A DNA stretch of 11,677 nt, taken from the IMG/VR virus record IMGVR_UViG_2711768074_000029, positions 1-11,677 of that record; one strand, given 5' to 3'. The stretch comes from a virus. Lineage: Duplodnaviria; Heunggongvirae; Uroviricota; Caudoviricetes. Positions 1-11,280 of this stretch are shown here, in pieces; positions within the stretch are counted from its first letter, which is position 1; each line of letters begins with the position of its first letter. The notes beneath the pieces were generated by a model. It saw nothing but the letters and a program-made list of their open reading frames with translations, did no database searches and was not told where the DNA came from. Made by a program: the position numbers and the translations under genes.

Positions 1-60
1 GGTATCCGTTCTGCTGAAGTGTCATGGCGTTGATTTTACGGTGACTCTTCGACAGTGAAA

Positions 61-4598: not shown

Positions 4599-4802
4599 AT
4601 GGCAATTAAGCATTTTCCTGTCGTTCGTTTTACCTCCAGAGGGCGTGAATACGAAGTCGACGAACGCCTGATTACCACAATCGACAAACACCGTTCGGAA
4701 AAGGATGCACACCACATCTACCTCACTGACGGCACTTACTTCTGCGCCACCAACGTGGCGCGGGTGAATCTTATCCGACAGGTACAGGAGCCACGCAGAT
4801 GA
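4599..4802 (+). CDS. Hypothetical protein, 67 aa
   Basis: Strong SD AAGGAGG (4588-4594) before ATG 4599. First of three ATGA-coupled genes. Confidence 0.6.
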   Translation: MAIKHFPVVRFTSRGREYEVDERLITTIDKHRSEKDAHHIYLTDGTYFCATNVARVNLIRQVQEPRR

Positions 4803-5361: not shown

Positions 5362-5483
5362 GAAACCAGAACATGCACACACAAAAAAACCGCTTGCCAT
5401 GCCGCAATCAGTCAGGTTACATTTCCGCTGCACCTCACAAAACGGGTGTCGGGTTTCGCAGCCTGCTGACTACACAAGCGCAC

Positions 5484-5504
5484 AACCGCGCCAGCGGTTT
5501 TTTT
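5484..5504 (+). terminator. Intrinsic terminator-like hairpin within the early region
   Basis: Stem aaccgc (5484-5489), loop gcca, gcggtt (5494-5499), followed by a 7-T run to 5504. Confidence 0.45.
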
Positions 5505-5683
5505 GTGCGTACTGTATTGCCACGTTTTTTTCGCGTCAGAATTATGGCGGGGCGTACGGGGCCGACTTCGGTCGGGCCGGGTTCTTGTGTAGCCGGTACT
5601 GCGAACCTCGTACGTCTCGCCACCCACAGTTTCGCAGCTCTGGATGGTGAGTTTTCACAACTTACTACACAAGGGGCCACACC

Positions 5684-10464: not shown

Positions 10465-10592
10465 AAGCATCTGCGCGAAAAATGCTCACGTTTATAGAGA
10501 CAGTATCATTCCATTTGGCACACTTACTTCAATAATCGATCTGTTAAACAAATAGATTGTCTATTATCTATCGATTAAAACGATCAATTATC

Positions 10593-10620
10593 TTGACAGT
10601 AATGTGCCTTTTTGTAAGAT
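10593..10620 (+). promoter_or_regulatory. Near-consensus sigma70-type promoter with a GATC overlapping the -10
   Basis: TTGACA (10593-10598), 16-nt spacer, TAAGAT (10615-10620). GATC sites at 10535, 10582 and 10618. AT-rich repeats (ATCGAT, ATTATCT, ATAGAT/ATCTAT) lie just upstream. Confidence 0.4.
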
Positions 10621-10670
10621 CGTTCGCATTGTGAGCGACAAGATAATTGCGCGGCATTGTCCATGCAAAA

Positions 10671-10698
10671 CGCCCCAATAGCAGCAACTATTGGGGCG
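10671..10698. other. Perfect 11-bp-stem hairpin (cgccccaatag / cagcaa / ctattggggcg)
   Basis: Seen directly. On the minus strand it is followed by UUUUG; on the plus strand there is no U-run. Could be a leader structure of the plus transcript or a weak minus-strand terminator. Confidence 0.4.
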
Positions 10699-10726
10699 TA
10701 AAACTCGGTCGGACTCACTTAACCTG

Positions 10727-10811
10727 ATATGCGTGCCTTCCGAAGTAAATCAAAATGTGCGTCGTATATTTTATTGCTTACACGCACCTCTGTAAAGGCA
10801 CGCATATTTTT
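10727..10811 (+). promoter_or_regulatory. Long-range 13-bp perfect inverted repeat enclosing an inner stem, followed by a T-run, directly upstream of the orf89 RBS (attenuator- or operator-like)
   Basis: atatgcgtgcctt (10727-10739) pairs with aaggcacgcatat (10795-10807), followed by ttttt. Inner inverted repeat gtgcgt / acgcac. The GAGG RBS is at 10817-10820. Confidence 0.4.
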
Positions 10812-10828
10812 CCTATGAGGTAAATAAA

Positions 10829-11098
10829 GTGCGGGCTAAAACAGGTATTTGCAAGAACCCTCATCGTTATAATCCAACATTTCTGTCTCTCCCTGAATAT
10901 CAAGGACAAGAAGGTCGGCACAAATGCGCTGCCTGTGCTTTTGAGCTAGGCATAAAAGATGCGCTTGAAGGACGCGCTATGGCTCAGAATGATTTAGTTT
11001 TAGCTAACATTCCGTTTAGCCAGGCTGGAACTGTAAGGCACAGAGATGCCTATGAAGCATATGTTCGTGGTTGGCGATTAATAAACAGCAACAATTGA
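10829..11098 (+). CDS. Hypothetical 89-aa protein with a Cys/His cluster (C8, H12, H31, C33, C36); orphan transcription unit
   Basis: GTG start 7 nt after GAGG; stop TGA 11096-11098, followed 9 nt later by a strong intrinsic terminator. No family recognised. Confidence 0.6.
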   Translation: MRAKTGICKNPHRYNPTFLSLPEYQGQEGRHKCAACAFELGIKDALEGRAMAQNDLVLANIPFSQAGTVRHRDAYEAYVRGWRLINSNN

Positions 11099-11106
11099 TA
11101 CTTTTG

Positions 11107-11130
11107 AAGCGCCGATAAGGCGCTTTTTTT
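11107..11130 (+). terminator. Rho-independent terminator
   Basis: Stem aagcgcc (11107-11113), loop gataa, ggcgctt (11119-11125), then a 7-T run. Confidence 0.75.
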
Positions 11131-11131
11131 G

Positions 11132-11280
11132 TTTGCACGATAGTGCACAAGTTTGCACAATTTTTTTGAACGACTTTTTGTACTTCCGGCCCGCGTGGTG
11201 GCTGGATCCGTCAAGGATCCGTACGTGCACAAAAAAACGCGTTTTTTCTGCGCGCAGGTGACGGGGGAACAGCCCGCGTT
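11132..11280. other. Repeat-rich non-coding region: candidate cos / packaging region
   Basis: TTTGCAC at 11132 and 11152; GTGCAC at 11144 and 11225; direct repeat GGATCCGT at 11204 and 11215; palindrome A7-CGCG-T6 at 11231-11247. A G-rich segment ggtgacgggggaacagccc (about 11257-11275) partly resembles the P2 cohesive end GGCGAGGCGGGGAAAGCAC as I recall it (13 of 19). Lies between the replication/cargo genes and a leftward gene, as cos does in a P2 prophage. Confidence 0.3.

What the first reader, a model, noticed from the sequence alone, without database searches (positions are those of the whole stretch)
10465..11130. Orphan 89-codon gene with near-consensus promoter, two-layer structured leader and strong terminator, next to the candidate cos site
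Seen: a self-contained transcription unit with TTGACA-N16-TAAGAT at 10593-10620, a perfect 11-bp hairpin (10671-10698), a 13-bp inverted repeat plus T-run just before the RBS (10727-10811), a GTG-start ORF with a Cys/His cluster, and a textbook terminator (11107-11130). A GATC overlaps the -10 and two more lie within 90 bp upstream. Inference: the leader could be an attenuator or thermosensor, or the inverted repeats could be operator sites. Dam methylation could modulate the promoter. The protein is unrecognised; together with ParMR it fills the slot where P2 carries exclusion genes.
Basis: partly seen in the sequence, partly recalled or inferred. Interest (0 to 1): 0.65.

Follow-up and report, generated by a model that had tools for sequence, protein, structure and literature searches.

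The report
Antisense-gated, Dam-marked prophage accessory gene cassette
A self-contained accessory gene in a P2-like E. coli prophage encodes a small zinc-binding protein of an unstudied family tied to GATC restriction-modification systems, and an overlooked opposite-strand small RNA plus Dam methylation sites appear to control it.

Summary
The reading of the leader needs revising. On the minus strand, inside the 13-bp inverted repeat, lies a promoter (TTTACA-17-TAAAAT, 10796-10768). It is as good as the sense promoter and is conserved in all 31 non-redundant phage homologues, with only the T1/A2/T6 positions and the -35 invariant. The 12-bp hairpin lies downstream of it, covaries, and carries its G.U pairs and T-run on the minus strand. 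The "two-layer leader" is therefore most likely a roughly 100-nt cis-antisense RNA gene opposing the mRNA.

GATC is enriched 7.9-fold in these leaders, and one site sits 10-11 nt upstream of the -35 in 30 of 31.

The 89-aa protein has a CHCC zinc site and two Q.G..RHK repeats. It has no Pfam, PADLOC or PDB match. Elsewhere its family is the third gene of type II restriction-modification operons with a Dam-family methylase. These operons contain DpnII, MutH/Sau3AI-type or REase_II nucleases. The domain also occurs fused to PD-(D/E)XK or HNH nucleases.

Best reading: a mobile cassette in the gpA-gpQ hotspot encoding a Dam-site-linked DNA-binding protein, gated by antisense RNA and methylation. 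No expression or function has been shown.

The parts
10538..10621 (.). Three Dam sites (GATC at 10538-41, 10582-85 and 10618-21). The middle one lies 11 nt upstream of the -35 and the last overlaps the -10.
   Evidence: Sequence and positions. A GATC lies 10-11 nt upstream of the -35 in 30 of 31 homologues, with further sites at or near the -10. Enrichment is 7.9-fold over the flanks.
10593..10620 (+). Sense sigma-70 promoter TTGACA-16-TAAGAT. The predicted start is about 10627, giving a 5' UTR of about 200 nt.
   Evidence: 10 of 12 matches. Conserved as TTGAnn-16..18-TAnnAT in 31 of 31 homologues.
10585..10649 (.). Perfect 11-bp inverted repeat (10585-95 and 10639-49) bracketing the sense promoter. 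Its role is unknown and it is specific to this lineage.
   Evidence: I3. It is absent from the L092 group.
10670..10699 (-). 12-bp GC-rich hairpin, followed on the minus strand by TTTTGCAT. Proposed 3' stem-loop or terminator of the antisense RNA. The same hairpin is also present near the 5' end of the mRNA.
   Evidence: The stems covary. G.U pairs number 31 on the minus strand and 8 on the plus strand. There are weak Rfam hits on the minus strand to the terminator hairpins of ctRNA_pGA1 and sar.
10662..10761 (-). Predicted cis-antisense RNA of about 100 nt, complementary to the middle of the mRNA leader, including the 5' arm of the 13-bp helix.
   Evidence: Inferred from the promoter and hairpin positions. 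It folds with z = -3.4. No transcript data are available.
10768..10796 (-). Antisense sigma-70 promoter TTTACA-17-TAAAAT, located in the loop of the 13-bp inverted repeat.
   Evidence: 10 of 12 matches. All 31 homologues have TTTAC[AT]-17-TAnnnT. The invariant columns of the alignment are the -35 and T1, A2 and T6 of the -10.
10727..10811 (+). Long-range 13-bp helix (10727-39 with 10795-807) plus a U-run, lying just upstream of the ribosome-binding site.
   Evidence: Analogous long-range helices occur in relatives (L092 GAGGTGT/ACACCTC and L003 GAATG/CATTC).
10812..10831 (+). Ribosome-binding site GAGG (10817-20), weakly paired with CCU at 10812-14, and the GTG start at 10829.
   Evidence: Relatives have a stronger hairpin occluding the ribosome-binding site, with compensatory changes.
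10829..11098 (+). 89-aa protein with a CHCC zinc site (C8, H12, C33, C36) and two Q.G..RHK...A..G repeats.
   Evidence: AF2 pLDDT is 92. It matches phrog_3941 at 9e-49. The ORF is intact in all homologues examined.
11106..11133 (+). Intrinsic terminator closing the unit.
   Evidence: Homologous cassettes have their own terminators.

Best explanation
The locus is a mobile, insulated accessory cassette in the gpA-gpQ hotspot of a P2-like (Xuanwuvirus) prophage.

A Dam-site-decorated sigma-70 promoter (start about 10627) makes an mRNA with a structured leader of about 200 nt. A second conserved sigma-70 promoter faces it from inside the leader (10796-10768, minus strand). That promoter makes a cis-antisense RNA of about 100 nt, which ends at the 12-bp hairpin.

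Pairing of this RNA with the leader most likely keeps the protein off until a trigger lowers the antisense RNA or changes the methylation state. Structure around the ribosome-binding site and convergent transcription probably contribute. The GATC sites make promoter output depend on Dam methylation. This logic is that of IS10 or type I toxin-antitoxin systems.

The product is a small zinc-binding, probably DNA-binding protein. Its family is functionally tied to Dam/GATC methylation systems. In the prophage it most likely acts on DNA according to its GATC methylation state, as a conditional exclusion or defence function.

What is shown by sequence and comparison: the features themselves, their conservation, and the genomic associations. 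What is inferred: that the transcripts exist, that the antisense RNA represses, that the protein binds DNA, and the biological role.
For: Architecture:
- Both promoters score 10 of 12.
- In 31 non-redundant phage homologues, at 43% mean column identity, the minus-strand -35 and the T1, A2 and T6 positions of the -10 are invariant at exactly 17-nt spacing. The interior of the hexamer varies (TAAAAT, TAATCT, TAGACT, TAGAAT, TACGAT and others).
- A strong hairpin ends 63-72 nt downstream of that promoter in 28 of the 31 (97 nt here, 133 nt in L122; in L097 the script picked a different hairpin). The stems covary, and G.U pairs favour the minus strand 31 to 8.
- The hairpin occluding the ribosome-binding site shows compensatory changes.
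- GATC occurs once per 58 nt in the leaders and once per 453 nt in the flanks, the highest enrichment of all 16 palindromic tetramers. Its positions relative to the -35 and -10 are fixed.
- The cassette sits in three different phage slots with unrelated neighbours.

Protein:
- Invariant C8, H12, C33, C36 and the RHK motifs, and a confident model.
- Among metagenomic loci with at least 2.5 kb on both sides, 25 of 30 carry a Dam-family methylase. So do 17 of 22 protein clusters.
- The gene lies next to DpnII, next to a MutH/Sau3AI-family gene, or next to a REase_II enzyme.
- The domain is fused to NOV_C or HNH nucleases and to DndB.

Slot: the gpA-gpQ hotspot (PMC9122126). Phage 186 carries tum/orf97 with its own promoter in the same place.
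Against: - No transcript, protein or phenotype data exist for this cassette.
- The minus-strand tail after the hairpin (TTTTGCAT here, TTCCCTTAT in relatives) is a weak U-tract, and the terminator scan did not call it. The RNA end is therefore uncertain.
- A hairpin is symmetric between strands. The hairpins used for the G.U count were picked on the minus strand, which biases that count.
- The invariant GTAAAG also pairs within the predicted mRNA structure, so part of its conservation could be due to RNA structure.
- GATC is not enriched upstream of the methylase in the restriction-modification operons (1 per 685 nt against 1 per 450). There is therefore no evidence that the protein binds the GATC sites of its own promoter.
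- Plasmid homologues at 39% identity lack this leader, so the protein need not be toxic.
- There is no PADLOC match, and DNA binding is only inferred from the fusions and the conserved basic residues.
Confidence: 0.45

Rival explanations
1. The protein is an anti-restriction or DNA-protection factor. It shields or modulates unmethylated GATC DNA, or the nuclease or methylase of GATC systems. The phage makes it when its own DNA is undermethylated. The regulatory architecture is the same as in the best explanation.
For: The family is embedded in GATC restriction-modification operons with three unrelated nuclease families. This points to the methylation mark or the methylase as the partner, rather than a specific nuclease. 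GATC at the -10 would couple expression to undermethylation (with knowledge of IS10 pIN).
Against: Fusions of the domain to nucleases fit a targeting domain better than an inhibitor. Phages grown in Dam+ enterobacteria are already protected from DpnII-type enzymes. The three phage slots are typical of lysogen-expressed exclusion genes. The family is rare on plasmids: tblastn found only 12 of 72,556 plasmid records, and the three neighbourhoods inspected showed no typical anti-restriction genes.
Confidence: 0.22
2. The leader is purely cis-acting. The 13-bp helix plus U-run would be an attenuator or thermosensor, and the inverted repeats would be operators. The minus-strand promoter match would be silent.
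For: The leader folds strongly (z = -3.9). A 13-bp helix is followed by U5 just before the ribosome-binding site. An 11-bp repeat brackets the promoter. Relatives have a hairpin occluding the ribosome-binding site.
Against: The helix-plus-U-run arrangement is not conserved as a terminator. In most relatives the U-run lies in a hairpin loop. The 11-bp repeat is lineage-specific. The conservation pattern T1, A2, T6 plus a 17-nt spacer plus TTTAC in 31 of 31 sequences is what a promoter predicts, not what a helix predicts.
Confidence: 0.12
3. The cassette is a Dam-dependent epigenetic (phase-variable) switch. A host or phage regulator, or the protein itself, competes with Dam at the promoter GATCs, as at agn43, pap or the P22 gtr operon. 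This would give heritable ON and OFF lysogen subpopulations. The antisense RNA would be secondary.
For: There are 2-4 GATCs at fixed promoter positions. A conserved palindromic segment (TAATCGAT...ATCGATTA, 10533-10577) lies between two GATCs and is shared with the L092 group. The family is linked to Dam.
Against: No recognisable OxyR or Lrp site pattern was found by eye. The upstream palindromic segment occurs only in the P2-type lineage. There is no GATC cluster at the restriction-modification operon promoters.
Confidence: 0.12

Closest known systems
IS10/Tn10 transposase control (pIN/pOUT with RNA-OUT, and a Dam site in the pIN -10); also Dam control of finP/traJ on pSLT
   Same: Two facing sigma-70 promoters, with a short antisense RNA complementary to the 5' part of the mRNA. 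GATC lies in or next to the promoter hexamers, so output depends on methylation state. This comparison rests on my own knowledge, set.
   Different: Here the overlap lies in the middle of a leader of about 200 nt, not at the translation start. The gene is not a transposase or a transfer gene. Neither the Dam effect nor the antisense effect has been tested.
Type I toxin-antitoxin loci (hok/sok, symE/symR, ralR/ralA)
   Same: A small protein gene on a mobile element, a long structured leader with an occluded ribosome-binding site, a cis-encoded antisense RNA, and its own terminator.
   Different: The protein is hydrophilic, zinc-binding and probably DNA-binding, not a membrane peptide. Relatives are ordinary members of restriction-modification operons and plasmids and lack such a leader. 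Toxicity is unknown.
Accessory units in the P2/186 gpA-gpQ hotspot (P2 old and tin; 186 tum/orf97)
   Same: The same slot, next to cos. A unit with its own promoter and terminator, independent of the phage operons (PMC9122126).
   Different: No sequence relationship. No match to PADLOC defence models.
Third genes of type II restriction-modification systems (C controller proteins)
   Same: A small gene co-transcribed with the methylase and nuclease, 17-20 nt after the nuclease gene.
   Different: It is not a helix-turn-helix protein. It lies downstream rather than upstream of the nuclease gene. No operator or GATC cluster is seen at the operon promoter.
Ribosome modulation factor (Pfam PF04957) / Rmf-CrpP-like small helical proteins
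   Same: A shared A..GY..G helix motif. The best Foldseek hit is 2jrm (E about 1), and 10 of 47 members weakly match the Pfam model.
   Different: hhalign probability is 5%. All matches are below threshold. RMF has no CHCC site and no RHK repeats.

Membership tests
Cis-antisense RNA-regulated gene (IS10-like or type I TA-like) | A functional promoter on the opposite strand inside the transcribed region | tested here: met
   In silico only. The match is 10 of 12. TTTAC[AT]-17-TAnnnT is found in 31 of 31 homologues, with promoter-type invariant positions. Transcription has not been observed.
Cis-antisense RNA-regulated gene (IS10-like or type I TA-like) | A defined antisense RNA with a structured 3' end or terminator | tested here: inconclusive
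   A covarying hairpin lies 63-97 nt downstream in most loci, with a G.U bias to the minus strand. The U-tract is weak and the terminator scan did not call it.
Type I toxin-antitoxin | The protein is toxic when the antisense RNA is removed | not testable with these tools
   No assay is available here. Relatives without the leader exist in restriction-modification operons and on plasmids, which argues against strong intrinsic toxicity.
Dam-regulated promoter | GATC within or adjacent to the -35 or -10, conserved in position | tested here: met
   One GATC overlaps the -10 and another lies 11 nt upstream of the -35. 30 of 31 homologues keep the upstream site. Enrichment is 7.9-fold. The effect of methylation has not been tested.
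Intrinsic attenuator in the leader | A conserved terminator hairpin plus U-tract upstream of the ribosome-binding site | tested here: not met
   The helix and U5 are present in the window. In the 12-sequence subgroup the U-run lies in the loop of the hairpin that occludes the ribosome-binding site.
Rfam RNA families | A match at the gathering score over the leader or antisense region | tested here: not met
   No hit in the window or in 7 homologous loci. Only sub-threshold hits to the hairpin were found.
Known anti-phage defence proteins (PADLOC v2) | A match to a profile | tested here: not met
   0 families at E of 10 or less.
RMF (PF04957) | A match above the gathering score, or significant profile-profile similarity | tested here: not met
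   The best member has E = 0.0016, below the cutoff. hhalign probability is 5%.
Phage 186 Fil (PF10893) | Significant similarity to Fil | tested here: not met
   hhalign probability is 2.5%.
Accessory component of Dam-family (GATC) type II restriction-modification systems | Encoded next to a Dam-family methylase and a GATC-type nuclease | tested here: not met
   This is met for the wider family. It is not met for this copy, whose neighbours are ParM/ParR and the cos/portal region. The host Dam would have to serve as the methylase.
Zinc-binding protein | Four conserved Cys/His ligands | tested here: met
   C8 and H12 are invariant. C33 and C36 are conserved in at least 90% of 47 diverse members. 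Metal content has not been measured.

The most novel reading that the evidence does not exclude
The 89-aa protein would be the prototype of a new mini-domain that reads the methylation state of GATC. It is a zinc-stabilised pseudo-dimer of two Q.G..RHK repeats, and each repeat could contact one half of the palindrome. Restriction-modification systems would use the domain as a targeting or control module. Enterobacterial phages would have captured it and wired it to a sensor made of Dam-marked facing promoters and an antisense RNA. The protein would then be released only when undermethylated DNA appears or host transcription collapses. That would be a previously unrecognised methylation-sensing exclusion (or anti-restriction) system.
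Probability: 0.2. Interest if true: 0.85.

Novelty: new variant of a known kind. Interest (0 to 1): 0.62.

Why it matters
The cassette is common. The exact protein occurs on at least 1000 contigs, and the full cassette is in 166 of 5426 complete E. coli genomes. Relatives occur in Salmonella and Providencia prophages. It is nevertheless annotated as hypothetical, or not annotated at all.

If the reading holds, it adds three things:
- A conserved phage antisense RNA that is absent from Rfam.
- Another natural circuit that combines Dam methylation with antisense control.
- A handle on a protein family of more than 1600 clusters that accompanies GATC restriction-modification systems across Bacteroidota, Bacillota and Proteobacteria and has no assigned function.

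It also gives a defined, testable candidate from the part of the P2 defence hotspot that is still of unknown function.

Tried and rejected
- STnc6030, the antisense RNA of the BTP1 prophage, is a different element that lies antisense to the tailspike gene.
- Rfam gave no family over the leader in 8 loci.
- Pfam, NCBIfam and PADLOC found nothing for the protein, and PHROGs matched only phrog_3941, a family of unknown function.
- Homology to RMF and to 186 Fil was rejected by hhalign.
- I tested whether the protein might bind GATC boxes at restriction-modification operon promoters. GATC is not enriched there.
- I looked for a plasmid leading-region (anti-restriction) context. tblastn found only 12 plasmid records. 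The two enterobacterial copies whose sequence I read lack the leader. One plasmid copy is a methylase-nuclease-X operon.
- A functional link to BstA is seen in only one lineage.
- Blastn with the leader alone finds it nowhere else among the phage records.
- The apparent loss of the ORF has two explanations. In many RefSeq genomes it is an annotation inconsistency. In the phage 503458 record it is three 1-nt deletions that look like assembly errors.
- The AFDB50 fold library was unavailable.

Full report
**Where the window comes from.** The window is 100% identical to chromosomal P2-like prophages of E. coli and 98.9% identical to Escherichia phage 520873 (Peduoviridae, Xuanwuvirus). The local gene order is replication endonuclease A, ParM, ParR, the 89-codon ORF, the cos region, then portal Q on the other strand. 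The full 836-nt query is present in 166 of 5426 complete E. coli genomes. About 1100 genomes share only its right end, the cos region. The gpA-gpQ interval is the established accessory and defence hotspot of P2-like phages. About a quarter of these phages carry a partition system there (PMC9122126; PMC13586616). Phage 186 has the tum/orf97 unit, with its own promoter, in the same slot.

**Checking the observation.** Every feature is present.
- Sense promoter TTGACA-16-TAAGAT at 10593-10620.
- Terminator at 11106-11126 followed by T7.
- Hairpin of 12 bp, arms 10670-81 and 10688-99.
- Inverted repeat of 13 bp, arms 10727-39 and 10795-807.
- ORF 10829-11098 with a GTG start and GAGG 8 nt upstream.
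- GATC at 10538, 10582 and 10618.

Three perfect inverted repeats of 11 nt or more in 666 nt is far beyond chance. None of 300 dinucleotide shuffles has two repeats of 12 or more. The leader folds with z = -3.9.

The same scan reports a second promoter that scores equally well, on the minus strand. It is TTTACA-17-TAAAAT at 10796-10768, inside the loop of the 13-bp repeat. The T-run of the 12-bp hairpin is on the minus strand (GGGGCG-TTTTGCAT). On the plus strand the hairpin is followed by TAAAAC.

**Comparative test.** Tblastn and pattern scans found homologues at 50-63% amino-acid identity.
- In a Salmonella P22-like phage the gene lies between cI and N.
- In a Providencia lambdoid phage it lies between Q and the lysis genes, on the opposite strand.
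- About 50 further IMG/VR contigs carry it.

All the ORFs are intact. No neighbouring gene family occurs in more than 5 of the 31 non-redundant loci. The conserved unit is therefore the cassette itself.

The 31 upstream regions align at only 43% mean column identity but share one architecture.
1. A sense promoter TTGAnn-16..18-TAnnAT in 31 of 31. A GATC lies exactly 10-11 nt upstream of the -35 in 30 of 31. More GATCs lie in the -35, at the end of the -10 or just after it.
2. A strong hairpin whose stems differ in sequence but stay paired.
3. An invariant GTAAAG, which is the minus-strand -35 TTTAC. Exactly 17 nt further on is a hexamer in which only T1, A2 and T6 are invariant. Variants include TAAAAT, TAATCT, TAGACT, TAGAAT, TACGAT, TACAAT, TAGTAT and others. 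This is the signature of selection on a sigma-70 promoter.
4. A long-range helix that encloses that promoter.
5. In the largest subgroup, a hairpin that occludes the ribosome-binding site, with compensatory GC-to-AU changes.

In 28 of the 31 loci the hairpin ends 63-72 nt after the predicted antisense start. In this window it ends 97 nt after it, and 133 nt in L122. In L097 the script picked a different hairpin. G.U pairs in the hairpin number 31 on the minus strand and 8 on the plus strand. That count carries a selection bias, because the hairpins were picked on the minus strand.

GATC occurs once per 58 nt in the leaders and once per 453 nt in the rest of the loci. This is a 7.9-fold enrichment, the highest of the 16 palindromic tetramers.

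No Rfam family covers the element in 8 loci.

**The protein.** Pfam, NCBIfam and PADLOC give nothing. PHROGs places it in phrog_3941, of unknown function. An exhaustive HMMER search finds 173 representatives, and a profile search finds at least 1600 clusters. All are named hypothetical.

C8 and H12 are invariant across 47 diverse members, and C33 and C36 are conserved in at least 90% of them. R30, Q65, R70 and H71 are also invariant, and H31 and S64 are conserved in at least 90%. The sequence is an internal duplication of the motif Q.G..RHK....A...G...G. AF2 gives pLDDT 92 and shows the same element twice.

No solved or viral predicted structure matches significantly. The RMF and Fil resemblances are at motif level only.

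**Family context.** The standalone gene lies in operons with a Dam-family methylase (TIGR00571, 330 bits) in several arrangements.
- Methylase, a 425-aa enzyme (PADLOC REase_II, E = 1.6e-150), then the small gene 17-20 nt later. This is seen in Bacteroidales and on a Lactiplantibacillus plasmid.
- The small gene, a PDC-S19 protein, a small ORF, then methylase and nuclease.
- An HTH gene and the small gene, convergent with DpnII and a methylase.

Of 30 loci with at least 2.5 kb on both sides, 25 carry the methylase. So do 17 of 22 protein clusters.

The fused forms show a similar pattern, although some were on contigs too short to judge or had no methylase nearby.
- Domain plus NOV_C (PD-(D/E)XK nuclease), next to a Dam-family methylase.
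- DndB/DpdB-like plus the domain, inside an operon of methylase, DpnII and a second methylase.
- Domain plus HNH, next to a MutH/Sau3AI-family gene and two methylases.
- A BrxR-like WYL regulator plus the domain, with no methylase nearby.

Three unrelated nuclease families therefore accompany the domain. DpnII and MutH/Sau3AI are known (my own knowledge) to be GATC-specific, and the third is the REase_II enzyme. The constant partner is the Dam-type methylase or its mark. I infer a nucleic-acid-binding module that acts at Dam sites.

GATC is not enriched at the promoters of these operons. Enterobacterial plasmid homologues lack the phage-type leader. The GATC-rich antisense leader is thus a regulatory shell specific to the enterobacterial phage lineage.

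**Mechanism.** I commit to the following.
- The sense mRNA starts near 10627.
- A convergent promoter makes an antisense RNA of about 100 nt (10761 to about 10665). This RNA pairs with the leader, including the 5' arm of the 13-bp helix.
- The duplex would lower translation or stability, as in IS10, hok/sok and countertranscript systems. Convergent transcription and structure near the ribosome-binding site would add to this.
- Dam methylation at the promoter sites sets the balance.
- Release would follow loss of the labile antisense RNA or the appearance of undermethylated DNA.

I estimate the antisense RNA gene at about 0.75 and Dam sensitivity at about 0.6. I put DNA binding linked to GATC at about 0.45, and a role in exclusion or defence rather than anti-restriction at about 0.3 against 0.2.

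**Comparison and novelty.** The control logic has known precedents in IS10 and in type I toxin-antitoxin systems, so the cassette is a new variant of a known kind. The RNA, the protein family and its link to GATC systems appear undescribed in the libraries searched.

Noticed in passing
window 5430-5627 (+): Rfam gathering-score hits to the isrK Hfq-binding RNA (5430-5504, 61.9 bits) and the C4 antisense RNA (5540-5627, 83.2 bits). This is a P1/P7-type c4 immunity-like RNA module in the early region of this P2-like prophage. The same pair occurs in L123 at 1259-1457.
   Followed up: no
window 10585-10595 and 10639-10649: A perfect 11-bp inverted repeat (CAATTATCTTG/CAAGATAATTG) brackets the sense promoter from the -35 to about +20. 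It is absent from the closest diverged relatives (the L092 group), so its role is unknown. It could be an operator pair.
   Followed up: partly
window 10533-10577: An 8-bp inverted repeat, TAATCGAT...ATCGATTA, with internal ATAGAT/ATCTAT symmetry, lies between the two upstream GATC sites. It is conserved in the L092, L095 and L096 P2-type cassettes but not in other lineages. It could be a regulator site that competes with Dam.
   Followed up: partly
window 11204-11222: A direct repeat GGATCCGT-N3-GGATCCGT, carrying two more GATC sites, lies in the cos-proximal region that is conserved among P2-like phages.
   Followed up: no
L223 (NZ_CP025892.1) and many RefSeq E. coli genomes: The ORF is intact, with one substitution, but is not annotated in many genomes that are 99.8-99.9% identical. 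The family is therefore under-counted in annotation-based surveys.
   Followed up: yes
L224 (phage 503458, NC_049341): Three single-base deletions break the ORF in this record, although the leader is 98% identical. They look like assembly errors rather than decay.
   Followed up: partly
L058 2723-4028; L059: In one lineage the small gene is followed about 100 nt later, on the same strand, by a protein with a BstA_C domain (a prophage abortive-infection defence). This was seen only in that lineage.
   Followed up: partly
L010 5271-6876; L013 5317-6931: In some loci the small gene heads an operon with a DUF3644 protein (PADLOC candidate PDC-S19) and a 102-105-aa ORF, upstream of the Dam-family methylase and the REase_II enzyme. 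TIR, AbiEii and RadC genes lie nearby, suggesting a defence island.
   Followed up: partly
L003 about 4700-4730; L092 about 4700-4715 (upstream of the cassettes): Many cassettes are preceded by their own intrinsic terminator (for example GGTCGCAGAAATGCGGCC-T6), which insulates them from upstream phage transcription. The window copy lacks a clear one after ParR.
   Followed up: no
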